Source: a virus. Taken from it: DNA of 64,000 nt. Below, one piece after another: positions 1,262 to 43,300 of this stretch; position 1 is the first letter of the stretch, and the number at the start of each line of letters is the position of its first letter. Location of the stretch: positions 1-64,000 of the IMG/VR virus record IMGVR_UViG_3300003690_003399; one strand, 5' to 3'. Position numbers and translations under genes: made by a program. The notes under the pieces were generated by a model, which searched no databases, was not told where the DNA came from, and saw only the letters and a list, made by a program, of their open reading frames with translations.

Positions 1262-2203
1262 ATGAAAAACGACATGATGCTTATAATGGAAAATTGGCGC
1301 AAAGGTCAAGAAAAACTTTTACTTGAAGGTAAAATTCTTGATTGGATTAAACAAAGCATTAAAAACGGCTTTAAGAAATTAACAAAGAAGCCCGAAGTGT
1401 TTGATGCAATGGTAGAAGACGCAAAAGCATCCTTCGAAGAAATAATGATGGATAAATTAAAAAACAATCCTGAAGTCCAAGAAATAGGAAGAGAAGTTGC
1501 AGATATAATTAACGCACAACAATCTTCAAATGATGAATTGGCTTTAAATGAGGGCTGGACGGATCCCGAACCGGCCGGCGCGCAGCCCGAAGATCCTGAA
1601 GACCCTGAAGACCCTGAAGACCCTGAAGATCTCGACCCAGAGACTCCCGAAACTGAAGAAAAAAAAGAATTATCCGATGATGATTTGAGAGAAATAGGTT
1701 TATCTGATGAACAGATTGATAAATACAGGGAGAAGTTTTCAGAAATAATTGCATCGAGCATTCTCGAAGCAGCGGAAGAAGCTACTGGTAAAGTGGCCCC
1801 ACCAGAAGTTAAAGATTTCCTTGTGCGGTTTTTTAAACGATCATCGAAGATGATTGCATTTGGATTTGTTGATAACTTTATTATGATCACAGCCGGAGAC
1901 TATATTGATCCTGAATTAAAGAATTTGTTAGGTACTTCTACTATGTTTGCAGCCGGAATAGGAAATATGATATCAGATGTCGCTGGTGAAGAGGCCGGCG
2001 GCCTACTCGACTCTACATTAGAAAAAATGGGCCTGGATATCCAGGATGTCTCTGATGAACAAATGGAGGTGTCGCCGGGCTGGATGCGATTTATGGACAG
2101 ACGCGCAGGAACGTTTGGTGTCGCAATTGGCTGCCTTTTAGGAATGATTCCACTGGCATTTATGGAAGATAAGGAAAAAGATGACCGTGAAACTCTTATT
2201 TGA
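1262..2203 (+). CDS. TMEM65-family membrane domain fused to an N-terminal IMENWR tag and acidic linker
   Basis: FGFVDNFIMITAGDYID...STMFAAGIGNMISDVAG...GVAIGCLLGMIPL matches the TMEM65 signature (FGFLDNAIMIVAG...STMAAAALGNLVSDLAG...GVTIGCILGMFPL). Confidence 0.85.
   Translation: MKNDMMLIMENWRKGQEKLLLEGKILDWIKQSIKNGFKKLTKKPEVFDAMVEDAKASFEEIMMDKLKNNPEVQEIGREVADIINAQQSSNDELALNEGWTDPEPAGAQPEDPEDPEDPEDPEDLDPETPETEEKKELSDDDLREIGLSDEQIDKYREKFSEIIASSILEAAEEATGKVAPPEVKDFLVRFFKRSSKMIAFGFVDNFIMITAGDYIDPELKNLLGTSTMFAAGIGNMISDVAGEEAGGLLDSTLEKMGLDIQDVSDEQMEVSPGWMRFMDRRAGTFGVAIGCLLGMIPLAFMEDKEKDDRETLI
1586..1630 (+). repeat. 9-bp tandem repeat x5 (ccygaagay) encoding (PED)5
   Basis: cccgaagat cctgaagac cctgaagac cctgaagac cctgaagat. 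Confidence 0.9.
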
Positions 2204-3332
2204 AAATTGGCGAGAATACCGATTGCAGGAGGCCGAAGAAGCAGAGACTGAAGAAGAAACTGAAGAAGAAACTTCTGAGGATGCTGTATTAGATTTATCA
2301 AGAGAGTTTGATTCTGGTTTCTGTAAATATAACCCCCTTATAAACGAGTATGCACAATACTCTCCAGATCAATTAGCTGATGTATTAATGTTTGTAATCG
2401 GTACACAACAAATGAGGTGGTATGATGTAGTGCCAAAGTTTCCAATATTATTAAAATTTGTTCATGAAAATGATGGTTTAATGACTGATAAAAATTTGCT
2501 GAACCCGGGCAAAAAGAAACCTAGATATGATTTTTCTGGATTTGGCCAATTGGTTATGGGCCCGCGCAAACATGCAATTGATTATTTGTGGAAAAACAGA
2601 GAAAAGATATATTCTAGTTTTAGTAGCTTGTTCAGTGAATATAATAATTCTAGTGGACTAAAAAAAGAAGAAGCATTGTTTAATATTTATTTGCAAACAT
2701 TAACATTACCAGGATTTGGCTTACCAAAAGCGGCGTTTGCAACTCAATTAATCATTGGTCGTTTGGGTTGTATTGATTCAATTAACCTCAACATATATAA
2801 AGGAATATCAAAAGAATTTAACATATTGACACCTGGAGGTAAAGGATTTCGAGCACCTAAAGTTACTACATCTGGTAAAAAAGTTATTCAAGCGGGGGAA
2901 TTCGATAGCAACATAATTAAGCTCGGACCTAGGGGCATTGAATTGGCCGAAAAATACGTAGAATTTTTAAGGCAAATTGCAAAAGAAACTGGTGCTAGTG
3001 ATATCTCTCACAAATTGTGGGATTCTTGGGTAGAGTTGGTAGCTAAAAAAATCAACATAAAAGACGACATCAAAGTAATAATGCCAGATGGGTCTGAGCA
3101 TGTTGTACCTAATGATTATTCCAAAAATATAAAAGGAGCAGAAACAAATCCTTCTGCCGCCTTCAGAAAAAAATATATAGGTAAAATAACCGGTCAAGAT
3201 GTTTCTAGACAACATCATATACCAACAATGAATGAAAACAAAAAAGATCAACTATTATTTGAAAGCTGGTCCAAATATTTTTATAACTCTTTAAAAGAGC
3301 GTTTAATTAGAATAAAGGTCAAAACAAGATGA
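2181..3332 (+). CDS. HhH-GPD/Ogg-like DNA glycosylase-fold protein with KLLFENWR tag
   Basis: LPGFGLPKAAF helix-hairpin-helix with conserved Lys, followed by GCIDS Asp. Confidence 0.55.
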   Translation: MTVKLLFENWREYRLQEAEEAETEEETEEETSEDAVLDLSREFDSGFCKYNPLINEYAQYSPDQLADVLMFVIGTQQMRWYDVVPKFPILLKFVHENDGLMTDKNLLNPGKKKPRYDFSGFGQLVMGPRKHAIDYLWKNREKIYSSFSSLFSEYNNSSGLKKEEALFNIYLQTLTLPGFGLPKAAFATQLIIGRLGCIDSINLNIYKGISKEFNILTPGGKGFRAPKVTTSGKKVIQAGEFDSNIIKLGPRGIELAEKYVEFLRQIAKETGASDISHKLWDSWVELVAKKINIKDDIKVIMPDGSEHVVPNDYSKNIKGAETNPSAAFRKKYIGKITGQDVSRQHHIPTMNENKKDQLLFESWSKYFYNSLKERLIRIKVKTR

Positions 3333-5494
3333 AGTTATTATTTGAAAATTGGCGAAATCATTTAGCTTCCCTCGAAACACAACTTTTGATTGAGGGCATT
3401 GTAAAAGATGTCAAAACGAAATATATACATATCTCTGAAGTGATTGACCATCTGGTAGAAAATCTACAACCTTTCGACGGGATTAAATATCTTAGGTGGG
3501 CGGCTAAACAGGCCATGAAATCTTATGATGCGGCGAAGGCTCACGATCACGTCGATCCCAAAGAACCCGCAATGGGACAGGCAGTCATGTTAATTCCACA
3601 AATTAAAAGATTCGATGAATCTAAGCAACGCTTCCCGAAATTTGGCTTCTCTACAGATATTAATTCTTATCAGTCTTTCGAAGATCTACAAAGTGCAGTT
3701 GAAACCGTCGAGGCAGAAGAAACACAGAAAACAAAAAGAGCAGAAGAAAAGCGCGCAGCTTTTAGCGAAGCGGATATACTTACAGGCCAAGATAAAGGTG
3801 ATGATTTTTTTATTGTTCGCCCATATACGAAAAAAGCCGCCTGTTATTTTGGTCAAAGATATGGCGGCACACAAGTAAAATGGTGTATCACTCAAGAAGA
3901 GATGGACTATTTTGATGACTACACTGATCGTGGAGACGCCTTTTATTTTGTTTTTCCGACACATCTTTCAAAGGATAATCAATATAAAAAATTAGCTTTT
4001 GTTTTTAACTCAGATCTGCGCGTTACAAGCGTATGGGATGCGCCGAATAGTACTATAGACAAAGAAGAACAAGAGCAAGTATTCGTACAAAATCTCCTGC
4101 GCCAGGGTGAAGAAGAAGGAGCCTGGATGACCTATTTGTGGGCCACGGAGGGCAAGTTTGAAGATGAGGCGACCCAAAAAGATATAGAAAAATATAATCA
4201 AGCATTAAAAAGACTCGGATTACCCACATTAACCACAGTAAATGAATGGAAGGTCAAGAGAAGTGAGGACCCATCGCCCACCGAAGCGATTGCTCAAAGC
4301 CGTCTGAGTGAATACAAGAACGATGTACAGAAAGAAATTAAGGATTGGTCAAACGAAGCAATTCTCAAAAAGGCAAAAGACGCCCTGCGCGCAGTTGAAG
4401 ACGATACCCGCGAACATCTAAGAGAGAACCCGGTTGAATATACTGGACCAACATTTGCAGACTTTGAAGAGATCAAAGACGAGTACGAGGAAGAAGCAGA
4501 AAACATATGGATTGACCTTGAAGAATCAGATGATCCTCGCAATCCGTATTGGTCCGCGGGCGGCCAATTTGATTTTGTTCAAACAGATGAAGAAGGAAAC
4601 GAGCACATATTTGAATCAGATGATATACTGAATATGCTTGAACAGTCGTCCACCGAGGCTGGTATTTATATGGAGAACATCCAGGCCTCTATTGACGGTG
4701 GTGCAAACGTTCATTTCACCGCGGATCGTGATGAACATGGCTTAGAAGGATTTAGGTCATGGATCAATAGAATGAAAGAATGGGATGAAAAATGGGATGA
4801 ATTGTATGCTGACACGCTTAAGGCGCTGAAGCGACAAGAAATTTCAAGAGCCCGAAAAGGGGGCATGCCCGAAACTAAACATTTCAAAATAGAAGAAAAA
4901 AGAGAGGATTTAGAAGCTACTGCGGTGATAGAACTTAAATTACCAGGAGTACTTAATTTGTTAGGCGACCTCGGCGCCATGGACGAAGTCGAGTCGCACA
5001 GAGCAAGAGTAAACCTCAAGATAAAAACTAGAGATCTCTTCGATAGATATACTATAGCCAGAAATATTTATTTTAAAAGAATACAAGCCTATATTGATGA
5101 AGCTGAAAAAATAGCTGCAAAACAGTTAAATCTGCCGGGCATTGATGCACCGGAAAAAGAAAAAGTAGGTATACCCGCACTTGATGGGGTCTTTGCCAAT
5201 ACAAACTTTGATGTAGACAATGAAACTTTATACACTACACTTATGTTTACCATCCGCGGAGCACGTCAGGATGATGAAATAGAATATATTGTAAACTTCA
5301 TTAAATATCTAGATGATCATTTCGAAGAAATGATGCAAATATTAGCAGATTCAACGATACAGATGTTACGCAGAGCTATTAAACAGGGGTTAGAAAATTT
5401 ATTTGATTTTGGAGCACCGCCCGAGTCAAGCCTATCAGAATCAAAGAAAAGAACCAAACTTATCATCGAGATAAGAAAAAGAAAACAAACATAA
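3329..5494 (+). CDS. Large phage protein with KLLFENWR tag and a 'KWCIT' (PcfJ-like) domain
   Basis: IVRPYTKKAACYFG...KWCIT...YFDDY...FYFV...VWDAPN pattern typical of large-phage proteins. Confidence 0.5.
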   Translation: MKLLFENWRNHLASLETQLLIEGIVKDVKTKYIHISEVIDHLVENLQPFDGIKYLRWAAKQAMKSYDAAKAHDHVDPKEPAMGQAVMLIPQIKRFDESKQRFPKFGFSTDINSYQSFEDLQSAVETVEAEETQKTKRAEEKRAAFSEADILTGQDKGDDFFIVRPYTKKAACYFGQRYGGTQVKWCITQEEMDYFDDYTDRGDAFYFVFPTHLSKDNQYKKLAFVFNSDLRVTSVWDAPNSTIDKEEQEQVFVQNLLRQGEEEGAWMTYLWATEGKFEDEATQKDIEKYNQALKRLGLPTLTTVNEWKVKRSEDPSPTEAIAQSRLSEYKNDVQKEIKDWSNEAILKKAKDALRAVEDDTREHLRENPVEYTGPTFADFEEIKDEYEEEAENIWIDLEESDDPRNPYWSAGGQFDFVQTDEEGNEHIFESDDILNMLEQSSTEAGIYMENIQASIDGGANVHFTADRDEHGLEGFRSWINRMKEWDEKWDELYADTLKALKRQEISRARKGGMPETKHFKIEEKREDLEATAVIELKLPGVLNLLGDLGAMDEVESHRARVNLKIKTRDLFDRYTIARNIYFKRIQAYIDEAEKIAAKQLNLPGIDAPEKEKVGIPALDGVFANTNFDVDNETLYTTLMFTIRGARQDDEIEYIVNFIKYLDDHFEEMMQILADSTIQMLRRAIKQGLENLFDFGAPPESSLSESKKRTKLIIEIRKRKQT

Positions 5495-5508: not shown

Positions 5509-7152
5509 ATGCCTTGTACAATCAACAACAACACTTCCCACGACCTATCTCAGTTGGAAGACTTAACCAAGAAATTAGTTCCTTTTGCGCAAAAGCAAAT
5601 AGGCTTTAATCGACCACCAACAATTAATTTTAATGATGACGAAAATAACGCAGCTAACCCGCTTGGAAGAACGGCGCAATACGATCCTTCAAATATGGAA
5701 ATTATTATCTTTGTTACAGGGCGCCACACAAAAGATATTCTGCGCTCAATTGCACACGAGCTAGTTCACCACGGACAAAATTGTAGAGGCGATCTGGACG
5801 GTGACATTCAGACAGAACTTGGTTATGCACAAAACAACAAACACATGAGAGGGATGGAGCGCGAAGCGTACGAAGTCGGCAATCTTTGTTTTCGAGATTG
5901 GGAAGACGGGATAAAACAGCAATTACCGCTACATGAAACTATTTATAGGGAATCTCTTATAGGAGGAGAAAGCATGACACTTAAAAACTGGAGAATCAAG
6001 GAACTTAATGATCTTATGATGGAAAAATGGGGGTATAAACCGCCCGTTAAAAAGAAGCTTGATGAAGAACTTGATGCCTACATGGATATGCTCGATTATC
6101 AAACTGGTGAAGAGAGTTTAGATGAAGACGACGATGACGATGACGGTGATGGCGATGGGGACGGCGATGACGATGATGAGTCTAGTAGTCATCTACATTT
6201 AAATCCTCAAAGCCCTACATTTAGGCTCAAAATAAAAAGCGGCCGAAAGCGACTGCAGGAAGTTGTCCCACCGAGAAAGCCGCCGCGAAAGCCGCCGCAG
6301 AGAAGGCGAACAGCGGCGGATATACAGATTAAGAAGGCCGCCGCTGTGGGACACCACCGGACATTCTGGACGACATTTACATGGGCCCCGCGCACTTCAC
6401 CAGCTAGTTGGACCCCTAGACAAGTTCACAAAGCCTACAAACAACTTCATCTGACAAAGGGCAAGCTGAAGCCCGGAAGCTGGCCCGGCGAGGCTAGGGT
6501 CCGGGTAGCTTTGGAAAATATGTACAACACAGGAAAATTTACATTACCACCCGCCCCGATGCTTCCAATACGCAGGTGGGAAAAAGAAGGAAGAGTAAAA
6601 AAAGATAAAGATAAACGAACAAAAGAGCAACAAAAAAAAGATCATGACAAATTAAAAGAACTAGAACGAGATTTTTGGGAAGAAGGGCCAGAAGTTATAC
6701 AAAAAGGCCGCTGGCGGCGATGGTGTGGGGGGCACAAAGGTGTTTGTACACTACTCTGGGTTGCCGGTATTGCCACCGCCACAACATTCCTCGCTAAATC
6801 ATTTGACGTAGACTTGCTACAGCACTATCGCAACTGGCAAAAAGGGTCAGCAACACCTCGCGCGGCGGAGTGGGAAACAAAAGTAGGTACCATAGAAGGA
6901 AGCCCGGGCGAACAAATACCAGCTGCGCCGGTCACAGCACCAGTAAAACAAGCCACCGCGGAGAAGTGGAAAACTATAAAGAAAGACGGTACCCCATGTC
7001 CTACAGGCACCTGGACTCAATTAACAGCTCATGGGGATCCCGTAGAATGCGGAGTTTCATTGAACGGTCAGATTAATCCTGATACCAAAAGAAAAACGGC
7101 GAAGTGTAAGTGGGTAAATGGGTGTCCTGAATTTAATCCCACTATCGAGTAA
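5509..7152 (+). CDS. Zincin (HExxH) metallopeptidase domain fused to an acidic/basic, TM-containing, Cys-rich C-terminal part; probable internal start at 5974
   Basis: RSIAHELVHHGQ...MEREAY; hydrophobic LLWVAGIATATTFLA; internal SD AGGAGG at 5961. Confidence 0.7.
   Translation: MPCTINNNTSHDLSQLEDLTKKLVPFAQKQIGFNRPPTINFNDDENNAANPLGRTAQYDPSNMEIIIFVTGRHTKDILRSIAHELVHHGQNCRGDLDGDIQTELGYAQNNKHMRGMEREAYEVGNLCFRDWEDGIKQQLPLHETIYRESLIGGESMTLKNWRIKELNDLMMEKWGYKPPVKKKLDEELDAYMDMLDYQTGEESLDEDDDDDDGDGDGDGDDDDESSSHLHLNPQSPTFRLKIKSGRKRLQEVVPPRKPPRKPPQRRRTAADIQIKKAAAVGHHRTFWTTFTWAPRTSPASWTPRQVHKAYKQLHLTKGKLKPGSWPGEARVRVALENMYNTGKFTLPPAPMLPIRRWEKEGRVKKDKDKRTKEQQKKDHDKLKELERDFWEEGPEVIQKGRWRRWCGGHKGVCTLLWVAGIATATTFLAKSFDVDLLQHYRNWQKGSATPRAAEWETKVGTIEGSPGEQIPAAPVTAPVKQATAEKWKTIKKDGTPCPTGTWTQLTAHGDPVECGVSLNGQINPDTKRKTAKCKWVNGCPEFNPTIE
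5937..5945 (+). promoter_or_regulatory. Intragenic late-promoter motif AACTATTTA with SD AGGAGG (5961) and in-frame ATG 5974
   Basis: Motif-to-ATG spacing of 28 nt is identical to the copies at 1225 and 18719. Confidence 0.55.
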
Positions 7153-7165
7153 AGGAGACTATATA

Positions 7166-10100
7166 TTGAATATTTGCCTTAAAAAGTCACCCCCCTTGCT
7201 CACCGAACAACAAACAAAACCGAGCGGCATTTCTGCATACGTTGTAGGCACCATAGATGGTACGGTATTAGGAAACTATCGCGGCAATAAAACTTTTTAT
7301 GGCGCGTCAATGGAAAAGCCTATCCTGGCATTAATGAATGCCATATATTATACTAATATAAAATACCATACGATTACTACTAAAAAAGATGATGAATCAC
7401 ATGAAGCTCATGTAAAACGGGATAACAAAGTATTTGCTATGGCCAAACGACTACAGCACGGGTGGATAACGTGCCCCGAGCAGTTAACGGGGGCGCCCCC
7501 AATCTGCTCAGAACTCATTCTTGACGAGAAGATTTTCTACCAAGAGGCAAAAAATCATTTATTAACAGATGAAGAACTCGATGGACTTTTGGGTTATCGT
7601 GGGCTAAATTCGAATGCTGTGAATAGAAGTATCAAGGGCACAAACCCCGGCGTTAAGTGGAGCACAGCCGACAAACGATATACAAATAGTAGAAATGGTA
7701 GGTGTACACCAAAACCGTGTGGCAAACCACCGCTGGCGGTCCCAATTTCTGCAATGAAGCAAATTTTACAAGATATTGACCCTAACGGACTTTTAAAAGG
7801 AATACGATTTGCAAATGGTCGACAGACCGCCTTAAGCATGTACAACTTCATGATGTTTTTACTAAATGCAGAAACAATACCCGCGCTAAAGGATTACAAC
7901 CCGCAAGTAAAGAGAATTTTAAATTATATGACGCGAAGCGTATTCGGCGACACATACCCTGGTGGGTATGATCGAGACTCAGCCGGGATTATTAAATTAA
8001 AAAAAGAATTGAATCGTTACTGGCCTAATAAAATTACGAGCATATGGGGAAAAGGAGGGTTCACACAAAAAACACCAGTTTTAAACTATGCTCTCGTAAT
8101 CAACAACCAATATATATTAGTTGTATATACTAGACAACCAATAATGAACACTGCGTGCAAACCACAACAATATCGCTGCGCTAAAAATGCAGCATTTCCA
8201 CCACTTACAAATGCAATAGTTCAAGCCTTGTCGAGTGCAGAAGTATTTGGAGCACCAACAACACAAGTTAAGAAAAAAGCAACATTTATAGACATAAGTA
8301 AGAGTGAAGAAGTGCCTGAGAATATAAGTTTTTTCCCAGGTACGAAAAATGCATGCGGTACAGCTGCCATGCAACGATATGTGATGATCGTCTTAGGTAC
8401 CAATTTACAAAATTACGAGTGGTGTGTTGGAGACATTAGTAAATGTCCAACTGGCGGACCTATCGCGGGACATGATTCTCATAAAATCGGCATTGATATT
8501 GATGTAGCTCTTCCAACGGAAAGCCGAGGCCTCACAGGCTGCTCGACCAACCAAAAAGAAGGAAAATGGATAAAAAAGGGCGGCCAAAAATTTAAAAATA
8601 TAACCCCCGAACAATTAGATGCTACCGCTGCATTCAATTTTTTAAAAGCAACAGCACCATGGGCTCAGTATGTCGGCGTAGATAAACAATTCTGGCCGAA
8701 GATAAAGGAAGCTGCCGAAAAAGCTGGAATGGTCAAAGATAGCGCAGCATATAAACGTACCTTCTCTGTGTTGAGAGCGTGGAAACACCATAAAAGCCAT
8801 TTTCATGTACGACTAGGGACGAATACCGTAATCCGGGTGGCCCCGACGAAAGCCGGCGGAGCCACTACTGTCACAGCAACCGCACAACCCAGTATATCTT
8901 CCGAGATAGAAAAAATAGGCCAAGAAAAAGGCGCCGCCGTGGTGCGCTGCAATCAGTGGAAAGTCGAGGAATATAAAGACGCCAACAACAACGCCTGTGT
9001 GAAGGGGACAGCTGGGTGCAAGAAACGTGGTCAGCCGGCGCCCGGATTTGAGTATGATCCAGATTTTTCTTTTGCAGATTTTTATTGTGATCTTGAGCTT
9101 TGGGCGCCCTGGATTGATAAGAATCTTAAAAGCGCTGAAGACATTTTAAAAAAGTACGACGCAACACTTAATTGGATTTATGATGGTGGTCACGATAAAG
9201 CAGCCGATGTATTGCAAAAGGCATGGCTGCAAGCAGAGATTGCGGACAAACTAAGCCAACAACGAGAAGAAGAGATTGATTTCATGGGCCCCGAATGGCA
9301 AAAGTTGCTGCAGCAGCTTAAAAATAAACCCGGAGTCTCGTACCCCACTCCTATTAATTGTGGCGGTCGCGACGCTCTTTGTGGAAAAAACCAAACATGC
9401 GAGGAGTGGCCAGGGAAAAAGCGATGGAGATGCGTTTACAAAAAGAAGGAGGTAAAAGAAAATATGCTACCGAAAAGTATTAATAAGACAATACATTTGT
9501 CTATTCAAAAAACTAATTATAAGAAGTACCTTTTGGAGAAAAAGCCAGTGAAGGCTGAAAAAATAAAAATAAATAAAAACCTCCTACAAGAAAGCATTAA
9601 ACAAAAGCTATTAAATAACCCACAGCTATTAGATCGGCTCGCTTTAAACGAAGGCCCTGTTAGGTGGTTGAGAGAATTCGTCGCTATTTTTAGGGGAATG
9701 TTCCCCAAAATGGCGCCACGAGGAAAGGGCACGTGGGAATTTGTAAAGAGAGCATCAAAACGGTCAGCGAACGTTATGGGAGGATCTTGGAAACTGACAA
9801 AGCACATGAGACACACTCTATTTAATAAGTACGAGGGCTTGGCGACAGGGATTTGGATGACGAGCATGTTTTTAGACGACGAGGGCGATCAACCCCTTAC
9901 ACAAATCTTCAATGCGTTATATTCGAACTTCACCATGAGCGGCCAACTTATTTATATCTTTCAAAGGTATGGCATGAAAAACCGGTCACAACAATTTATA
10001 TACTGGACCCAGGGAAGGCCCGAAAGATGGGAAAAAATGGGAAAAAAACAATACCTTATGCTTCCACGTAATAGGTACAAAGGAGCCGTCGAGTGCGAAG

Positions 10101-11152
10101 AAGATGCTGAAGGAAATCTCGTCGATACAAACTGCTGGGCTAGCGATGATTTTTGTGGTGATCTAGAAAAAAAGTACCAAGGCGCCAAATCCTGTGGGCC
10201 CTCCTATTCTGGACATACATCTGGTCTCGGGACATCGTACTGGACATTTATGAATCCATTCCTGTTTGCACAGAACGTCAAACAATATCTCAAAGCAACT
10301 GATACACTGCCCGAAGATAAGAAAAAGGAAATTATTGACTCCTTTGATGCTGCGATGTCTGCAACAAGAAACTTTGAAAGCCAGTGTGGCAAAATGTACC
10401 CTGAAGATGAGAAAGGTCAGAAGGTATGTCTCCTATTGGGCAAAAAAATGCTTGCTGCGAATACGGCAATGACGCTCATCTGGGATAAATACCTTGGCGC
10501 ACTTCAAACACCAGAAGGATCGCCGTATTCTCCAACAAGCCCATTCATACATTCTCCCGAGGCTCAAGAAAAGAGCAGAGAGGTGAAAGAAAAACAAAAC
10601 GTGGCCATGCAACTACAGTATGGATATTTTGTGTTAAGCAAGTGTGAATATTATGTCAAAAATGGCCCACCAGGCGGGGCGCCAGATCCGGTTTATGACT
10701 GTAAAAATCTAAGTCCTAATTACAAACGATGCGCCTCAGAGTGTCCACAGAAGCATACAATGGTTGGTGGGCGCCCCGGCGATCTACTTGAGCTAGGTTC
10801 ATCTCCTATGAATGGCCCGGGCTTTAAATATTGGTTCCAGAAGTACGTTAATGATCCTAAAAATAATTTTGGTGGCATAACTGCGTATGAAGCAATGTGT
10901 ATGTTGGTAAATACTGGCAACACCAAAGGGTGCAAAAGCCCCGGCGTGGATCCGGAACTATGGCCATTGACGGCGCGCCTATGCGGCATTTGTCCCCAAC
11001 TTAAAAAGGGGCAAAGAGCGAGTGCCCATGAGTATGTATATGGGCCCCCCGGATGGATTTCACCAGCTACTAAAAAGACGCTTCCTGCGCGCCCAACTGC
11101 GCCGCTGACCAGCGACGAGCCAGAAGAATTCCAACCAGAAGAGGAATACTAA
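7166..11152 (+). CDS. Multidomain protein: serine beta-lactamase/PBP-fold domain + MepA-like (M74) murein endopeptidase + Cys-rich regions
   Basis: SD AAAGGAG at 7151 with in-frame TTG at 7166; YGASMEK (SxxK) and WGKGG; GDIS..GG...GHDSHKIGIDID...HHKSHFHVRL. Confidence 0.7.
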   Translation: MNICLKKSPPLLTEQQTKPSGISAYVVGTIDGTVLGNYRGNKTFYGASMEKPILALMNAIYYTNIKYHTITTKKDDESHEAHVKRDNKVFAMAKRLQHGWITCPEQLTGAPPICSELILDEKIFYQEAKNHLLTDEELDGLLGYRGLNSNAVNRSIKGTNPGVKWSTADKRYTNSRNGRCTPKPCGKPPLAVPISAMKQILQDIDPNGLLKGIRFANGRQTALSMYNFMMFLLNAETIPALKDYNPQVKRILNYMTRSVFGDTYPGGYDRDSAGIIKLKKELNRYWPNKITSIWGKGGFTQKTPVLNYALVINNQYILVVYTRQPIMNTACKPQQYRCAKNAAFPPLTNAIVQALSSAEVFGAPTTQVKKKATFIDISKSEEVPENISFFPGTKNACGTAAMQRYVMIVLGTNLQNYEWCVGDISKCPTGGPIAGHDSHKIGIDIDVALPTESRGLTGCSTNQKEGKWIKKGGQKFKNITPEQLDATAAFNFLKATAPWAQYVGVDKQFWPKIKEAAEKAGMVKDSAAYKRTFSVLRAWKHHKSHFHVRLGTNTVIRVAPTKAGGATTVTATAQPSISSEIEKIGQEKGAAVVRCNQWKVEEYKDANNNACVKGTAGCKKRGQPAPGFEYDPDFSFADFYCDLELWAPWIDKNLKSAEDILKKYDATLNWIYDGGHDKAADVLQKAWLQAEIADKLSQQREEEIDFMGPEWQKLLQQLKNKPGVSYPTPINCGGRDALCGKNQTCEEWPGKKRWRCVYKKKEVKENMLPKSINKTIHLSIQKTNYKKYLLEKKPVKAEKIKINKNLLQESIKQKLLNNPQLLDRLALNEGPVRWLREFVAIFRGMFPKMAPRGKGTWEFVKRASKRSANVMGGSWKLTKHMRHTLFNKYEGLATGIWMTSMFLDDEGDQPLTQIFNALYSNFTMSGQLIYIFQRYGMKNRSQQFIYWTQGRPERWEKMGKKQYLMLPRNRYKGAVECEEDAEGNLVDTNCWASDDFCGDLEKKYQGAKSCGPSYSGHTSGLGTSYWTFMNPFLFAQNVKQYLKATDTLPEDKKKEIIDSFDAAMSATRNFESQCGKMYPEDEKGQKVCLLLGKKMLAANTAMTLIWDKYLGALQTPEGSPYSPTSPFIHSPEAQEKSREVKEKQNVAMQLQYGYFVLSKCEYYVKNGPPGGAPDPVYDCKNLSPNYKRCASECPQKHTMVGGRPGDLLELGSSPMNGPGFKYWFQKYVNDPKNNFGGITAYEAMCMLVNTGNTKGCKSPGVDPELWPLTARLCGICPQLKKGQRASAHEYVYGPPGWISPATKKTLPARPTAPLTSDEPEEFQPEEEY

Positions 11153-13557: not shown

Positions 13558-14324
13558 ACCAAGAAGAAGCAAGGCTCAGAGCATTGATTAGAAAAGGCAT
13601 TCAGATTGTAACAGAGCGCAAAGAACAGCAACAAACTGAAGTACAAAGATTACGCAATGTTATTCATCATTTAATTGGCGAAGTTAAAGGTACCACCGAT
13701 GTTGCCGATAGAGTAATTCATAAAAATAGCGGAATTAACGTTTTAGACACTCTCCTAAAAAATGTTATTAAACAAATAGAAAGCTATTATAAAGATCTCT
13801 CTTCAAATGATCAACAGCGTAAATCCTTTAGATATCACTTTTTAATTAATTTTAAAAATGCTCTCGCGCCCATTAATGCAAATAGAGACGCACCAGATAA
13901 AGAGGCATTAGCAGAGCAAGATCTTAGTGTATTAATCGATGATGAACTAGATGATGAGGACATTGATACTCCTCCCGATGAATCAAAATTCCTCCCCGCG
14001 AGACCTCAAGATGAAGAAGAAGCCAAAGACGAAGAAGAAAAAGAAACTGGTTTTATTAAGTTAGACTCCGATGATCCTTCGGTTCGACAGGGCGCCGCAT
14101 TTGCTGAAAAAGCCTGGAATGATGTAGAGAATCAAATTCAAACTGCATACGAAGATTTGATTGATCCAGAAGATGCCGCGGCATTTTATGATTGGGGTCT
14201 TACAAATTTAAAACTTTATTTTGATAAATTTGAAGATGAAATGGCAGAATCTGGACAAGAACCGGAAAGTCCCGATTACCCACCAACGGGGCAGGCCCCT
14301 CTAGAAGAAACATATGAAATATGA
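13554..14324 (+). CDS. Acidic conserved phage protein (putative internal head protein)
   Basis: 256-aa ORF with good SD; RLRALIRKGI and RLRNVIHHLIGE amphipathic repeats. Confidence 0.6.
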   Translation: MNQEEARLRALIRKGIQIVTERKEQQQTEVQRLRNVIHHLIGEVKGTTDVADRVIHKNSGINVLDTLLKNVIKQIESYYKDLSSNDQQRKSFRYHFLINFKNALAPINANRDAPDKEALAEQDLSVLIDDELDDEDIDTPPDESKFLPARPQDEEEAKDEEEKETGFIKLDSDDPSVRQGAAFAEKAWNDVENQIQTAYEDLIDPEDAAAFYDWGLTNLKLYFDKFEDEMAESGQEPESPDYPPTGQAPLEETYEI

Positions 14325-14665
14325 AACTAACTAAATCAAAACTTAAACAGCTAATCAAAGAAGAGTTGCGAAAAGCGCTTCATGAATCATTTGATGAAAA
14401 AGAGTTTCAAACTTGTGTACAACAAATAATAACTAAAGACTACACGGGTACTAATTTCCAAAAGAAATACGACGCCACAATGTCATGTTGTACAGAATAC
14501 TGGAAAAGAACGGGTCGATCCACTCACGAAACATACGATCAAAATGTTGCAGATTGTAAATATGTTCGATGCATCCAAATAATAAAAGGCACTAGTGGCT
14601 ACCAAAAGGCTGATGCAAGTGGGAAGAAAGAGCGTATGCAAAGGTGCCGTCGGTGGCATCCTTGA
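14321..14665 (+). CDS. MKLTKSKLKQLIKEEL-tagged small Cys-rich protein
   Basis: N-terminal motif common in uncultured T4-like phage proteins; ALHE site; six Cys. Confidence 0.65.
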   Translation: MKLTKSKLKQLIKEELRKALHESFDEKEFQTCVQQIITKDYTGTNFQKKYDATMSCCTEYWKRTGRSTHETYDQNVADCKYVRCIQIIKGTSGYQKADASGKKERMQRCRRWHP

Positions 14666-17441: not shown

Positions 17442-18185
17442 CTAAAGGTGATAATATTTAGCACTTTTTTCTTCAATAAAGTCCATCAATGAGTTATAAG
17501 GTGGCCCAATAGAAATTTGAGGAAATCTTCTAAGTAACGAGTGAATTAACCCTATTAATTCAAATTTATCATTTAAAACCATTGATCCTGAAGATCCCGG
17601 CGCCGCCATCAAAGTGTAGACAGAAACGCGATCAAGGCCCCATTTGTTAGTGGCTTCTCCGTTATAAAAACCCTCATTGATTGGCACCATTTGATAATCG
17701 AATATTCCTATGGGCGCGCCAATATTGTATATACGGGATCCAGGCAATGGCTTGTATGCCGCAACCTTTAGTGGGGGCCTACGTAAGTCTTTAGAGAAGA
17801 GCATACATATATCACTAGCATTATCTTTTGTTAATAAACGGGCTTTATATTTTTTACCATCAATATCGATCAATTTAAATGTGGTATAAAAAGCGGTGGG
17901 CGCCGAAGTGCAAACATGAGCAGCGGTTATAACTAAACTTCCATTATTGGTATTTTTTATTACAAAGCCAGATCCGATATAATGAGCAGTCTGGCCAATT
18001 TTAAAACATCTCTTAAAAAGACATATTTTACTTTCTTCCTTCACAGTCACAAACATAAAAGATTCGCGAGGTAAATTATGAGCCGTTTCTTCTGCGGTAT
18101 AGTTATAAGTATTTCTATGATGGTGGTGAGTATATGTACAAGTCATCAAAAAAAGAACTAATAAAGGCATTAGAAATTTTTTCAT
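17442..18185 (-). CDS. Trypsin-like (S1) serine protease with signal/lipoprotein peptide
   Basis: TAAHVC, DIC, PGSSGS catalytic triad motifs; MKK + hydrophobic stretch + C. Confidence 0.88.
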   Translation of the reverse strand: MKKFLMPLLVLFLMTCTYTHHHHRNTYNYTAEETAHNLPRESFMFVTVKEESKICLFKRCFKIGQTAHYIGSGFVIKNTNNGSLVITAAHVCTSAPTAFYTTFKLIDIDGKKYKARLLTKDNASDICMLFSKDLRRPPLKVAAYKPLPGSRIYNIGAPIGIFDYQMVPINEGFYNGEATNKWGLDRVSVYTLMAAPGSSGSMVLNDKFELIGLIHSLLRRFPQISIGPPYNSLMDFIEEKSAKYYHL

Positions 18186-20385: not shown

Positions 20386-21087
20386 ATGAACTATATTTCG
20401 GAAAGTGCCGAGAGGGCGAAAAATAATAGTAGAGAAAAATATATTTATGGAGATAAATTAGTTTACATAAAAGATCAATTGCCTTATGGATTTGATTTAG
20501 ATTACGTACTCAAAACAATTGAGAATTTGATTCCGCGTAATTTTTTTGAAAACATTGATTCAATTTATATAGGAAAGTTTAAAGACTTTGAAAATGGAGA
20601 CCTCCCCTTTAACGCAAAATACAAAGACAACGCTTTATATGTTACAAACAAACAAGATAACGAAAATGATATGATGGATGATATTATACATGAAGTAGCA
20701 CATGCTGTCGAAGAACGTTTTGGAGACCAAATTTATTCTGATTTTACAATAGAGAATGAATTCAAAGGCAAAAAGCGCACCCTTTATCACCTTTTAGATC
20801 AGGAGGGCTATGAACCTTCTTTAGAACAATTTGATAATGTTGAATATGACAAACATTTTGATCGATATCTTTATAAAGTAGTAGAATACCCCACCCTTAG
20901 TACTTTAACGACGGGCCTATTTTATTCTCCCTATGCGATAACCTCACTTAGAGAATATTTCGCCAACGGGTTCGAGAACTACTTTTTAAGAGACAAAAGC
21001 TATTTAAAGAAAATAAGCCCAGCAGTATATAGCAATATTGCTGATTTATTAGATAAACAATTAGGAGAAGAAAAAAATGAATATTGA
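20386..21087 (+). CDS. Zincin-like metallopeptidase
   Basis: IIHEVAHAVE plus downstream REYFANGF third ligand. Confidence 0.7.
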   Translation: MNYISESAERAKNNSREKYIYGDKLVYIKDQLPYGFDLDYVLKTIENLIPRNFFENIDSIYIGKFKDFENGDLPFNAKYKDNALYVTNKQDNENDMMDDIIHEVAHAVEERFGDQIYSDFTIENEFKGKKRTLYHLLDQEGYEPSLEQFDNVEYDKHFDRYLYKVVEYPTLSTLTTGLFYSPYAITSLREYFANGFENYFLRDKSYLKKISPAVYSNIADLLDKQLGEEKNEY

Positions 21088-40070: not shown

Positions 40071-40360
40071 AAAATGTTGACAAGTACATTGAAGAATCAC
40101 TTACCAATATAAGGGACGACCGCGCAGTAACTTCTACTCTTTTAACTGAGCTGTTAATAGAGATGAAAAAAGCTGGCGACCTTGAAACTCACAAACAGTT
40201 AGGCCTCATCGCTTCTAAATATGTTGAAACTCTCCAGCGTTCCAACGAACAATTAGTTAAAATTGCCGCGCTGCTAAATAAAAGACAGGGCGGCTCTATT
40301 GAATTAGATGAAAGCGACAAACAAGAACTTTTTGACTTAATCCAGGGAGAAGGTAATTAA
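40055..40360 (+). CDS. Helical hypothetical protein
   Basis: Coupled ORF, 101 aa. Confidence 0.55.
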   Translation: MGQRIKNVDKYIEESLTNIRDDRAVTSTLLTELLIEMKKAGDLETHKQLGLIASKYVETLQRSNEQLVKIAALLNKRQGGSIELDESDKQELFDLIQGEGN

Positions 40361-43300
40361 TGGCCATTAATATGCGCGGCGACGCGTCGACGACTCCAGC
40401 AACGATGCATTATCGGCCGGGTACTCTAAATGTATTGGACACGCCCGAATGGGCAATTGCGATTAGCCCCAATGACAGCGGCAAGTCTGTGCAATACTTG
40501 ATTAATCAACATGTACTTACACCCAACAAGTTTGAAAGTGTTGGCACTCTGTATGGCATTTTGTTACGAGAAAATAGTCCTTACAGCGACAATGATCCTT
40601 ACACACCTTTAGATATTTTGCACGCGGCAACTTTTGCCATGCGCGGCGCCGATGGTCTCAGGTTACCCACTTATAAAGTTCGCATACCAGAACTTCATTT
40701 TATGTTACCGATTCCTAAAAATTTGAATAACCCCACACAGACTGATAAAATTATTATAGATTGTTATCCCACCATACAAGCAGTTGATACAAAAGTATCA
40801 CGCGCACAACCCGGCGACATAGTAAAAATTGAAATGGCAAATAGAGGCACTATTTCTAGGCTTTATTATCTTGGTCCCGTTGATCCCGACAGTACAGCAA
40901 ACCCATGGGTTGTTGGCCCACACAGTCCTCCTTATAACTATGGGCAACTTCTTGAAGAGTGCAAAAAGAAATATTCTAATGCTGGCTCTCGCGGAGATGT
41001 AATCGGCAGGGGTGACAATGTGGCAAAACCAAATAGTGATGTTCCCATCGTTGTTAAAGGCCTCGGCCACGGAGAAAATAAAATCATCATTGGTACGGTA
41101 TATAAAAAGTGGCTTCATAAACTATTTCAAAGATTAAAGGCTGAAGACAAATATAAAGGCCTCGTGTGGCTAGGGGTGTGTAAAAACAATGGCGCAGAAG
41201 ACCAAGAAAAAATGCTCACAGGCAATGGTGCAACCATAGGCCGCGGCACCGGACGTTCTACTATAATCTACATGCCGGCTAGCACAGATCCCCATTCTCC
41301 ACTAGAGATAATTTATTGGTTTCATGACGCCTTGGGGTTTAAAAACAACACAAAAGAGTGGAATAAACTTTGGGTCTCCTTAAAAGCGATGTCAAAGAAA
41401 AAGAGCACACTCGACGGCGCTCGCCGCAATTTTATTCTTGTTATTCCTGAAATGTTGTGGTCCGAAGAGGCATCTGGAATATATTCTTCAAGAGAGGGAG
41501 AATTGATATTTGGCGCCTCAGCCATGCCCACAACAAACGGAGCTTTTTCAGGAGGCTACAAAAATAGAGAGTGGGCTGCATGGGGGTTTGATGGCATACC
41601 AAACGAAAAAAATATAGTATGGGAAACGTTTGGGGACAAATCTATTTCATTTGCGCCAATTTCTTACTCCGAAGCCGGCGCCCCAGTGTATACAGGTGCC
41701 GACCTCCTAAAGATCCCCGCGGGCCATTCGTCTCTTTCCATGGTCGGCAACCCTCGCCTAGGCATACCATTTGGATTTCAACCACTTTCTTCACAAGTCG
41801 CCCCCATACCATTCGGCGATACAATTACTTGGCAGTGGGTCCAAGGTTTGCCATCGAACGTCGCCGGAGATATGGTGCTTCTTCACCAAGAAATATTAGC
41901 AATATTGAAGGATCGCTTTGGTGTCGCCACCGATACTAATAAATATGTAACGCTAGTTGGCCACAAAAAAGGAGGAATTGCAATTGCTAATTTGGCGCGC
42001 CTAAACAAGCTTGGCAAAGGCCCCGCGCAACTATATGCTTCAAAAATATCTTTCATTGACGGAGATTATGCTGGGATGAATTATGTGTCTCCAAAAAAAC
42101 TCTACGACTATGGAAAAAATTGGTATCATGGTGGCGATTTATACGAAGTTATAAGAAACATAGATGATAGTACTACACTAGAAATACATCTTAGTTGGGG
42201 CGCAGGGACTCCCCTACGACCAAAACAGACAGCCGGCGCTTTCCTCGGCGCACTGCAACATGTCCGAACATGGGCACTTGCACTTCCTGGTTTTAATTTT
42301 GATAAGGGGGTTGAAGCATTAGACAAATTTTATTCTTATATTTGGCCAAAATATTGGCCCAACGACTGGAGCATGACCGGCCCAGCGTACACTTCGATTG
42401 TAACTTATCCAGTCTGGTCCAGCGCCAAGTTTTTGAAAAAAACTTATACTGAAGGATACGGAGCCATACAGGGGAAAATAAATGAGATGATACAATTACC
42501 TTCTCCTTTTTCAAATATCATTTTTAAAGGATGGCCAACCTCCGATGCCCAAGGCGCCTTAGCGTGGCTCCCCCACAATGCACCAATGTCCGTTGCAACC
42601 GTGAAAGAAACCACACAAGATAAATTTTATAAAAAGTTTAATATAGATCCAGATATTCCATCTAATATAAAAAATATATTTAAAGACTTTAGAGGCAATC
42701 TCATATTATATAGATCTCAAAATGTTGGGCCCAGTAAGACTGTAGCGATATTAGAGCCATACGGTACGGCTGCACAGGCGCCCTATGAGCTTATTTATTA
42801 TTTCCATGGAGATATAGGATTAAATGGGGCAGCAAAAACATTCCAATCAGCACTAAAAAATCAATTTAATGTTATGATAGGAAATAAACGAAATGTGATT
42901 ATTGTTTTAATGGATATTGATCCATATCCTATGAGCCCATCATCAAATTTGTGGGATCTAGATCATGATCCTTCGGCAAGCTCGTTTGGTGATTTTCATC
43001 AAGAAGTTTTAAATAAAATATCTTCTATTTGGAGCGCAGATTGGCTGGACACCTTTGGTCATTTCGTATACCCCGAGTCGGACGCGCAAGAGTTAGGCCC
43101 TGTCGAGCAACAGCATTACTCGGAGAATGTACTCCCGTCCTTTGAAATGGCCACATATCCCTCGTTTATCACATTTAAGGCCCACGGTGGCGCCGGCCGA
43201 ATGCTTAAACACATTATAGATCATATGAATAATAACGATATCACTTCTACTTGGCAGACAACAACTAAATGGAAATATGACCCCCTCACCGGCGTACCCC

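What the first reader, a model, noticed from the sequence alone, without database searches (positions are those of the whole stretch)
1262..2203. Phage homolog of mitochondrial TMEM65 on a capsid-type tag
Seen: the C-terminal ~115 aa follow the TMEM65 signature closely, but GEEAGG replaces a hydrophobic stretch. It sits behind the ENWR tag and an acidic (PED)5 linker. Known: TMEM65 is a mitochondrial inner-membrane protein linked to Na+/Ca2+ handling. Inference: an injected or late ion-flux modulator of the host membrane.
Basis: partly seen in the sequence, partly recalled or inferred. Interest (0 to 1): 0.75.

Follow-up and report, generated by a model that had tools for sequence, protein, structure and literature searches.

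The report
Phage TMEM65-type membrane protein with address tag
An uncultured marine T4-like phage carries a true relative of TMEM65, the mitochondrial sodium/calcium exchanger, behind a short start peptide that this phage group puts on many unrelated proteins, probably to load them into the virus head; this suggests, untested, that the phage delivers an ion-transport module to its next host's membrane.

Summary
ORF 1262-2203 (313 aa) matches Pfam TMEM65 at E 3.5e-30. It keeps every family-invariant residue and the counterparts of the four residues that human TMEM65 needs for Ca2+ efflux (D204, D239, G242, D250).

The protein belongs to a phage-only branch of the family.

The branch occurs in two settings. 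In marine T4-like phages it follows one of two interchangeable N-terminal tags, each ending at an [LI]xE site. In high-GC phages it lies inside 1300-1600 aa polyvalent proteins, one of them between terminase and portal. Both settings point to delivery by the virion.

Close complete relatives of this phage encode a T4 gp21-type prohead protease but no TMEM65, so this protein is accessory cargo.

Packaging, cleavage, membrane insertion, ion flux and timing are all untested. No VIT1-like or other solved fold was found. This scan had already noted the ENWR tag on other DNA. What is new here is the TMEM65 cargo, its phage-specific signature and the polyvalent-protein link. Verdict: a new variant of a known kind, of moderate to high interest.

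The parts
1262..2203 (+). Whole gene, 313 aa: tag, helical N-domain, acidic linker, helical neck, then a three-helix TMEM65 membrane domain with a short acidic tail. Net charge is about -37.
1262..1327 (+). N-terminal address tag MKNDMMLIMENWRKGQEKLLLE (aa 1-22). ENWR is at nt 1289-1300, and the tag ends in L-L-E22, a T4 prohead-protease-type [LI]xE site.
1328..1552 (+). Conserved helical N-domain (aa 23-97; helices 24-40, 44-68, 70-89; GFKKL motif). It ends in a second conserved [LI]xE site, L95-N96-E97.
1553..1666 (+). Acidic, probably disordered linker (aa 98-135), including (PED)5 at nt 1586-1630. Its length and sequence differ in every relative.
1667..1846 (+). Conserved helical neck (aa 136-195) with I167-L168-E169, A179-P-P and the basic flank RFFKRSSK just before TM1. 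The basic flank predicts that the N-terminus faces the cytoplasm.
1847..2167 (+). TMEM65 domain (aa 196-302) with TM1 at nt 1847-1903, TM2 at 1934-1990 and TM3 at 2108-2161. D204/N205, G212, D216, S238/D239, G242, D250 and Q267 correspond to human D132, G140, E144, D167, G170, E178 and Q195. A GxxxGxxxG motif lies at aa 286-294.
   Evidence: PMC12830682
1985..2002 (+). GEEAGG (aa 242-247). E243 is the signature of the phage branch and replaces the I/L/V of cellular TMEM65. It lies one helical turn after the essential D239.
2181..3332 (+). Second ENWR-tagged gene (383 aa, MTVKLLFENWREYRLQE...) with an unrelated body. It overlaps the TMEM65 gene by 23 nt, and a homologue is kept in the close relative G006.
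3329..5494 (+). Third ENWR-tagged gene (721 aa, MKLLFENWRNH...) with an unrelated body and a 4-nt overlap with the gene before it.

Best explanation
The gene encodes modular cargo of a marine T4-like phage.

Shown:
- The last ~120 residues are a true TMEM65-family three-helix membrane domain with the intramembrane acidic and polar residues intact.
- The first ~22 residues are a peptide tag shared with many unrelated proteins. The tag is interchangeable with a second tag class and is bounded by an [LI]xE site.

Inferred:
- As with the T4 capsid-targeting sequence, the tag takes the protein into the prohead, where the gp21-type protease removes it. The protease may also cut at the conserved LNE97 and ILE169 sites.
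- The protein is then ejected with the DNA into the next host.
- There the C-terminal domain inserts into the cytoplasmic membrane from the cytoplasmic side. The basic flank before TM1 and the short acidic loop and tail that must cross favour pmf- or YidC-type insertion, with the N-terminus inside.
- By analogy with TMEM65, which forms a homodimer, the domain pairs and moves cations (Na+/Ca2+ or a related exchange) early in infection.
- The extra Glu243/Glu244 extend an acidic ladder (D239, E243, D250) on one face of TM2 towards the cytoplasm. This may alter ion selectivity or gating.
For: TMEM65 domain:
- The Pfam match has E 3.5e-30.
- All columns invariant across 97 diverse family members are kept.
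- An ungapped alignment to a vertebrate TMEM65 reproduces the spacing of human D132, G140, E144, D167, G170, E178 and Q195. [quoted passage not shown] The phage protein has D, D, G and D at those four positions.
- Purified TMEM65 alone performs Na+-dependent Ca2+ exchange and forms a homodimer (as cited in PMC13254257).
- Hydropathy and the AlphaFold2 model both give three helices.

Tag:
- It is N-terminal in every strict ENWR occurrence in four records.
- Synonymous codons vary freely, so the peptide itself is under selection.
- Of 152 tagged ORFs, 88% have [LI]xE within 14 aa after the tag, against 13% of background windows.
- P0016 carries the other tag class on the same body, and its homology to P0015 starts at the residue right after [LI]xE.
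- All five near-complete tag-bearing genomes encode Peptidase_S77. Two of them are close kin of this phage.

Independent context:
- The same branch of the domain, with the Glu signature, lies inside giant proteins that carry ART-PolyVal, ddrB-ParB or DUF5661 domains. One of these sits between terminase and portal.
Against: - There are no virion proteomics, and no cultured relative carries the tag.
- The 80-kb record itself lacks the head genes, so its own protease was not seen.
- A three-helix membrane protein would have to stay soluble inside a head. Only 11 of 152 tagged cargos have a strongly hydrophobic segment.
- The TMEM65-family form of the tag (ENWRGYQE) lacks the canonical Y-[LI]-x-E; its first site lies about 6 residues further on.
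- TM2 is only weakly hydrophobic (mean 0.57) and has low model confidence.
- Five complete relatives lack the gene, so it is dispensable.
- Ion specificity is inferred only by homology.
Confidence: 0.42

Rival explanations
1. The protein is made and used inside the infected cell and is not packaged. It would be an auxiliary cation transporter inserted into the producer cell's membrane to adjust Ca2+/Na+ or pH balance during infection in seawater. The ENWR tag would then have another shared role, such as docking to a phage chaperone, localisation or control of turnover.
For: The predicted N-in topology, with a basic flank before TM1 and an acidic translocated loop and tail, fits ordinary insertion from the cytoplasm. 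Stand-alone 94-111 aa TMEM65 proteins without any tag exist in a Vibrio jumbo phage and in bacterial MAGs, so the domain can work without virion delivery. Packaging is unproven.
Against: This reading does not explain several results: two interchangeable tags bounded by [LI]xE sit on the same body; the tag heads about 150 mostly soluble, unrelated proteins in variable arrays; and the nearest domain relatives lie in polyvalent proteins, one of them beside the portal gene.
Confidence: 0.28
2. The TMEM65 domain serves only as a membrane anchor or insertion device. It would hold the helical N-domain, or the enzyme domains in the polyvalent proteins, at the inner membrane near the DNA entry site, without transporting ions.
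For: In the polyvalent proteins it is the only hydrophobic region among soluble effector domains. The phage branch has diverged from cellular forms in the TM2 end and the loop.
Against: A plain anchor would not need invariant intramembrane D204/N205, S238/D239, G242 and D/E250, yet these are kept across the whole phage branch.
Confidence: 0.15
3. The protein perturbs the membrane on purpose. It would act as a holin or antiholin-like lysis timer, or as a superinfection-exclusion or abortive factor, by dissipating the membrane potential.
For: It is a small three-helix membrane domain of holin-like size (94 aa in the Vibrio phage). A 1344-aa protein with a murein endopeptidase-like domain lies 5 kb downstream.
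Against: No endolysin or spanin gene is adjacent. Homologues occur in giant viruses of eukaryotes and in cells, where a holin makes no sense. Holins do not show this kind of residue-level conservation with a transporter family.
Confidence: 0.08

Closest known systems
Eukaryotic TMEM65 (Pfam PF10507), the mitochondrial inner-membrane Na+/Ca2+ exchanger
   Same: The three-helix domain is the same. About 32-50% of residues are identical over ~120 residues. All family-invariant residues and the four functionally required positions are kept, as are the GxxxGxxxG motif in TM3 and an acidic C-terminal tail.
   Different: There is no mitochondrial presequence. In its place are a phage tag, a helical domain and an acidic linker. 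Glu243/Glu244 replace [ILV]-G. The TM2-TM3 loop is acidic (mean net charge -2.5 against +1.8) and has a two-residue insertion with a conserved PGWM motif. The phage branch lies outside the eukaryote clade.
Capsid targeting sequence of phage T4 internal proteins (IPI, IPII, IPIII, Alt), removed by the gp21 prohead protease at L/I-x-E (from established knowledge of T4)
   Same: A short N-terminal peptide is shared by unrelated proteins in a variable gene array. It ends in [LI]xE, and the lineage encodes a gp21-type protease.
   Different: The tag sequence is unlike the T4 one. It heads far more cargo families, here including a membrane protein. A second tag class is interchangeable with it. Packaging and cleavage have not been shown.
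Polyvalent proteins of phages and conjugative elements (Iyer et al. 2017, PMC5512222)
   Same: The nearest domain relatives sit inside 1300-1600 aa proteins with ART-PolyVal, ddrB-ParB or DUF5661 domains. One lies between terminase and portal, in the head-gene region.
   Different: The window protein is single-cargo and tagged, not polyvalent. A word search of that paper found no mention of TMEM65 or of transmembrane domains.
Stand-alone minimal TMEM65 proteins: Vibrio phage 2.275.O NVP2275O_332 (94 aa, annotated 'TMhelix containing protein', pfam:PF10507) and ~111-aa proteins in proteobacterial MAGs
   Same: They have the same domain and the same conserved polar residues.
   Different: They have no tag and no N-terminal extension. 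At the 243 position the bacterial forms have Ile and the Vibrio phage form has Ala. They form separate branches in the tree.

Membership tests
TMEM65 (PF10507) | Match to the family profile above the curated threshold, over the full domain | tested here: met
   E 3.5e-30 and 104.6 bits against a cut-off of 25, covering profile positions 6-109 of 109. The six-frame search gave 107.1 bits.
TMEM65 (PF10507) | Three transmembrane helices | tested here: met
   Hydropathy peaks lie at aa 196-214, 225-243 and 283-300. The AlphaFold2 model has helices at 183-214, 226-255 and 282-310. TM2 is weakly hydrophobic and has low model confidence.
TMEM65 (PF10507) | Residues required for Ca2+ efflux in human TMEM65 (D132, D167, G170, E178) | tested here: met
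   The phage protein has D204, D239, G242 and D250. The mapping rests on an ungapped alignment to a fish TMEM65 that reproduces the human spacing and on PMC12830682. The human sequence itself was not in hand.
TMEM65 (PF10507) | Mitochondrial targeting presequence and inner-membrane location | tested here: not met
   The N-terminus is the phage ENWR tag plus a helical domain. This is expected for a phage protein; the feature defines the eukaryotic orthologue, not the domain family.
TMEM65 (PF10507) | Na+-dependent Ca2+ exchange activity and homodimer formation | not testable with these tools
   This needs reconstitution or vesicle flux assays.
T4-type capsid-targeting sequence cargo | Short N-terminal peptide shared by unrelated proteins, always at the protein start | tested here: met
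   All strict ENWR occurrences in four records lie 4-6 residues after a start Met. The fetched loci hold 152 distinct tagged ORFs.
T4-type capsid-targeting sequence cargo | [LI]-x-E protease site at the tag boundary | tested here: met
   88% of tagged ORFs have the site against 13% of background windows. All family members have L/I-x-E at aa 16-25. The natural tag swap breaks at this site. Cleavage itself is untested.
T4-type capsid-targeting sequence cargo | gp21-type prohead protease (Peptidase_S77) in the same phage | tested here: inconclusive
   It is absent from the 80-kb fragment, which is about 45% complete. It is present in all five near-complete tag-bearing genomes, including two close relatives.
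T4-type capsid-targeting sequence cargo | Presence of the processed protein in the virion | not testable with these tools
   No proteomic data and no cultured relative are available.
Polyvalent proteins (Iyer et al. 2017) | Several unrelated effector domains in one giant polypeptide | tested here: not met
   The window protein has a single Pfam domain in 313 aa. Only its domain relatives in L005-L007 are polyvalent.

The most novel reading that the evidence does not exclude
Phage-type TMEM65 domains, marked by Glu after the essential Asp, are a dedicated membrane module of virion-delivered proteins. Tailed phages of at least two unrelated lineages would inject a cation exchanger or channel into the next host's inner membrane, either as tagged head cargo or as part of polyvalent proteins. 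This would reset ion gradients, or open a path, in the first moments of infection. It would also supply 94-140 aa prokaryotic and viral versions of the mitochondrial Na+/Ca2+ exchanger for structural and mechanistic study.
Probability: 0.3. Interest if true: 0.8.

Novelty: new variant of a known kind. Interest (0 to 1): 0.6.

Why it matters
Small, autonomous relatives in phages and bacteria would be convenient material for biochemistry and structural work. They also support the view that the domain transports ions on its own.

For phage biology, an ion-transport domain behind a probable head-loading tag, and inside polyvalent proteins, would add a new class of injected effector that acts on the membrane rather than on DNA, RNA or proteins. 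The natural tag swap also marks the tag boundary at the predicted protease site, which gives a precise construct design for testing the tag system.

Tried and rejected
- VIT1-like or any other solved fold: Foldseek against the PDB gave no hit with E <= 0.001. A sequence search of PDB chains found only low-complexity matches to the PED linker.
- BFVD gave one convincing fold match, to a 94-aa protein, and weak giant-virus rows.
- PHROGs has no family for this protein or for its tagged neighbours.
- An ESM Atlas search of the N-terminal 190 aa gave no usable hit.
- Recent capture from a eukaryote was rejected, because the phage branch lies outside the eukaryote clade. The tree is unrooted and rests on 120 columns.
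- A DNA-level explanation of the tag was rejected, because Leu and Arg codons vary freely.
- The T4 late promoter TATAAATA is not upstream of the gene. However, it also precedes phoH, so timing cannot be read from it.
- No RNA holder was listed among the sequencing runs.
- The 721-aa tagged neighbour has no match in cultured phages.
- The 'longer' protein search found few fused forms because of its word limits.
- The human TMEM65 sequence could not be fetched, so a fish orthologue was used for the residue numbering.

Full report
**What is there.** The window is the first 64 kb of an 80,075-bp IMG/VR virus record, estimated to be about 45% complete. GC content is 38% and almost all genes lie on the + strand.
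- The record encodes a gp25-type baseplate wedge protein.
- It also encodes a gp6-like wedge protein and a gp55-like late sigma factor, and PhoH.
- Its nearest cultured relatives are distant: Microcystis phage Mel-JY01 and Flavobacterium phage immuto, at about 31-32% identity for the wedge protein.
- Near-identical DNA occurs in hydrothermal-vent and seawater metagenomes.

It is therefore an uncultured marine T4-like myovirus.

**The ORF.** ORF 1262-2203 encodes 313 aa. Residues 197-302 match Pfam TMEM65 (PF10507) over essentially the whole profile, at E 3.5e-30 and 104.6 bits against a cut-off of 25. Hydropathy gives three segments, at aa 196-214, 225-243 and 283-300. An AlphaFold2 model built from 97 sequences has mean pLDDT 73 and places helices at the same positions.

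**Is it a working TMEM65 domain?** The sequence evidence says yes.
- In an alignment of 97 diverse family members the invariant columns are F200, G201, D204, N205, G212, G234, S238, D239, G290, C291 and G294. The phage protein has all of them.
- Vetralla et al. (PMC12830682) found human D132, D167, G170 and E178 to be required for activity, G140L and Q195E to be neutral, and E144Q to be hyperactive.
- A BLASTP alignment to a fish TMEM65 is ungapped from the DN motif to the Q. The fish sequence has D, G, E, D, G, E, Q at exactly the human spacings.
- The phage counterparts are D204, G212, D216, D239, G242, D250 and Q267. All four required positions are therefore kept, with one E-to-D change.
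- Purified TMEM65 alone mediates Na+-dependent Ca2+ exchange and forms a homodimer (as cited in PMC13254257).
- I could not retrieve the human sequence itself, so the numbering rests on the conserved spacing.

**The phage signature.** About 25 full-length metagenomic homologues, 43-91% identical, share the whole architecture. A profile-free scan of 1.8 billion representatives found 1632 family members, but only 13 below E 1e-30.
- In these close relatives the residue at +4 after the essential Asp is Glu in 18 of 22 sequences. All 32 bacterial and eukaryote-type sequences examined have I/L/V there; the Vibrio phage form has Ala.
- The segment after TM2 is hydrophilic (mean hydropathy -0.77, against +0.65 in the eukaryote type).
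- The TM2-TM3 loop is acidic (mean net charge -2.5, against +1.8).

D239, E243 and D250 lie at i, i+4 and i+11, which places them on one helical face. This suggests an extended acidic path, but that is an inference.

**Where the branch sits.** A maximum-likelihood tree of 66 domains (120 columns, unrooted) gives the following groups:
- a phage-type group, 96/78 support, holding the tagged T4-like phage proteins and three domains from giant phage proteins;
- a eukaryote-type clade, 99/98;
- a clade of ~111-aa proteins from proteobacterial and other MAGs;
- a giant-virus MAG clade;
- the 94-aa protein of Vibrio phage 2.275.O on its own branch.

The phage gene is thus not a recent capture of the eukaryotic gene. 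In 185,579 prokaryote species genomes a strict pattern scan found only 11 loci. One of them, on a Verrucomicrobiaceae MAG contig, looks eukaryotic.

**The tag.** In the window, ENWR occurs only at the starts of genes 1262, 2181 and 3329, which overlap one another.
- Related contigs carry arrays of 8-10 genes that all begin MKLL[FL]ENWRKYLxE, followed by unrelated bodies.
- Every strict ENWR occurrence in four records lies 4-6 residues after a start Met on the coding strand.
- Leu and Arg positions use four to five different codons, so selection acts on the peptide and not on the DNA.
- Among 152 distinct complete tagged ORFs, 88% have [LI]xE within 14 residues after the tag, against 13% of background windows. 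106 of them have the canonical ENWRxY[LI]xE.
- All TMEM65-family members have [LI]xE at residues 16-25. LNE97 and ILE169 are further conserved sites at domain borders.

**A natural tag swap.** P0016 has the same body but starts with the other tag class of these phages, MKITKPELEYIIKEELENVLNE. Its 54% identity to the ENWR-tagged P0015 begins at the residue right after [LI]xE in both proteins. P0098 is a second example. The two tags are therefore interchangeable modules bounded by the putative cleavage site.

**Protease and accessory status.** The fragment itself has no Peptidase_S77.
- All five near-complete tag-bearing genomes (185-204 kb) do have it, at E 1e-25 to 1e-34.
- Two of them are close kin of this phage, with 69-71% identity in the wedge protein.
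- None of the five has TMEM65.
- The syntenic locus in the closest one holds other tagged cargo.

The TMEM65 protein is therefore accessory cargo in a variable array, like the T4 internal-protein loci.

**An independent context.** In three high-GC viral contigs the same phage-type domain lies inside proteins of 1316 to at least 1597 aa. Their other domains are DUF5661, ART-PolyVal or ddrB-ParB. In the 109-kb, 97%-complete contig this protein lies between terminase and portal, next to another ddrB-ParB giant protein. This is the setting of the polyvalent proteins of Iyer et al. 2017, which are thought to enter the cell with the DNA. A word search of that paper found no mention of TMEM65 or of transmembrane domains.

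**Mechanism.** My best reading has these steps:
1. The tag loads the protein into the prohead.
2. The gp21-type protease trims the tag.
3. The protein is ejected with the DNA.
4. The C-terminal domain inserts into the inner membrane with its N-terminus inside. The basic RFFKRSSK flank before TM1, and the short acidic loop and tail that must cross, favour this.
5. The domain then moves cations.

Only the domain identity and the tag's modularity are shown; the rest is inferred. Three points weigh against this reading. A three-helix membrane protein would have to stay soluble in the head. Hydrophobic cargo is rare, at 11 of 152 ORFs, four of which are TMEM65. There are no virion data.

**Rivals.** The alternatives are an in-cell auxiliary transporter with the tag serving another purpose, a plain membrane anchor, and a holin-like or exclusion factor. 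The strict conservation of intramembrane acidic residues argues against a mere anchor. The presence of relatives in cells and in giant viruses argues against a holin.

**Prior knowledge.** This scan had already noted the ENWR tag in other genomes and reached the same T4-like reading, also without virion data. I re-tested the tag's position, its codon variation, the cleavage motif and the protease link independently. I found no open-access paper on phage or viral TMEM65. The Vibrio phage record carries only an automatic 'pfam:PF10507' note.

**Verdict.** This is a new variant of a known kind.

Noticed in passing
window 14321-14665; G000 78371-79870 (outside the window): A second N-terminal tag class, MKLTKSKLKQLIKE, heads one gene in the window and four tandem genes near the end of the record. 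The same tag class replaces ENWR on TMEM65 bodies P0016 and P0098.
   Followed up: partly
L005:8900-13147, L006:3-4793, L007:8696-12643: The TMEM65 domain is embedded in giant phage proteins of 1316 to at least 1597 aa, together with DUF5661, ART-PolyVal or ddrB-ParB domains. In L005 the gene lies between terminase and portal. A word search of the 2017 polyvalent-protein paper found no mention of this domain.
   Followed up: partly
L016-L025 (bacterial MAG contigs up to 854 kb): Minimal ~111-aa TMEM65 proteins occur in Pseudomonadota and Campylobacterota MAGs. The pattern scan found the family in only 11 loci among 185,579 species genomes, so it looks rare but real in bacteria.
   Followed up: partly
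L015:2620-3459: A contig of a Verrucomicrobiaceae MAG encodes a eukaryote-type TMEM65 with a presequence-like start and an EF-hand-like stretch, and it groups with eukaryotes in the tree. This may be eukaryotic contamination of the MAG.
   Followed up: no
P0051, P0064, P0070, P0074, P0100: Other TMEM65 architectures appear in metagenomes: EF-hand fusions, GAF-domain fusions and a tandem double TMEM65 domain in one 416-aa protein.
   Followed up: no
window 1225, 5493, 5937, 18719, 32695 and variants at 624, 673, 9511, 14676; G000 65868, 71076: AACTA[TA]TTA occurs 11 times on the + strand and never on the - strand. Several copies lie 7-37 nt before start codons, including those of the TMEM65 gene and phoH. 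It is a candidate promoter box of unknown timing.
   Followed up: partly
window 7118-11152 and 40360-44694: Two very large proteins (1344 and 1444 aa) carry stretches resembling penicillin-insensitive murein endopeptidase (Peptidase_M74), at E 2.5e-10 and 1.4e-4. They may be virion-borne cell-wall hydrolases.
   Followed up: no
window 5509-7152: This 547-aa protein has an HELVH zinc-protease-like motif, an acidic D/G run and a proline- and lysine-rich middle. Its N-terminal ~240 aa are conserved directly after the tagged array in L002, G006 and G009.
   Followed up: partly
window 17442-18185 (-): A trypsin-like peptidase (PF13365, E 1.7e-16) is one of the few genes on the minus strand.
   Followed up: no
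window 20386-21087: A 233-aa protein has a sub-threshold match to the ATLF zinc-metalloprotease domain family (E 5.6e-6, 26.6 bits against a cut-off of 27.4).
   Followed up: no
L041, L050, L082, L031, L063 (tagged ORFs listed): A few other ENWR-tagged cargos have a single central hydrophobic helix flanked by basic amphipathic stretches. Membrane-directed cargo is therefore a small recurring class, not unique to TMEM65.
   Followed up: no
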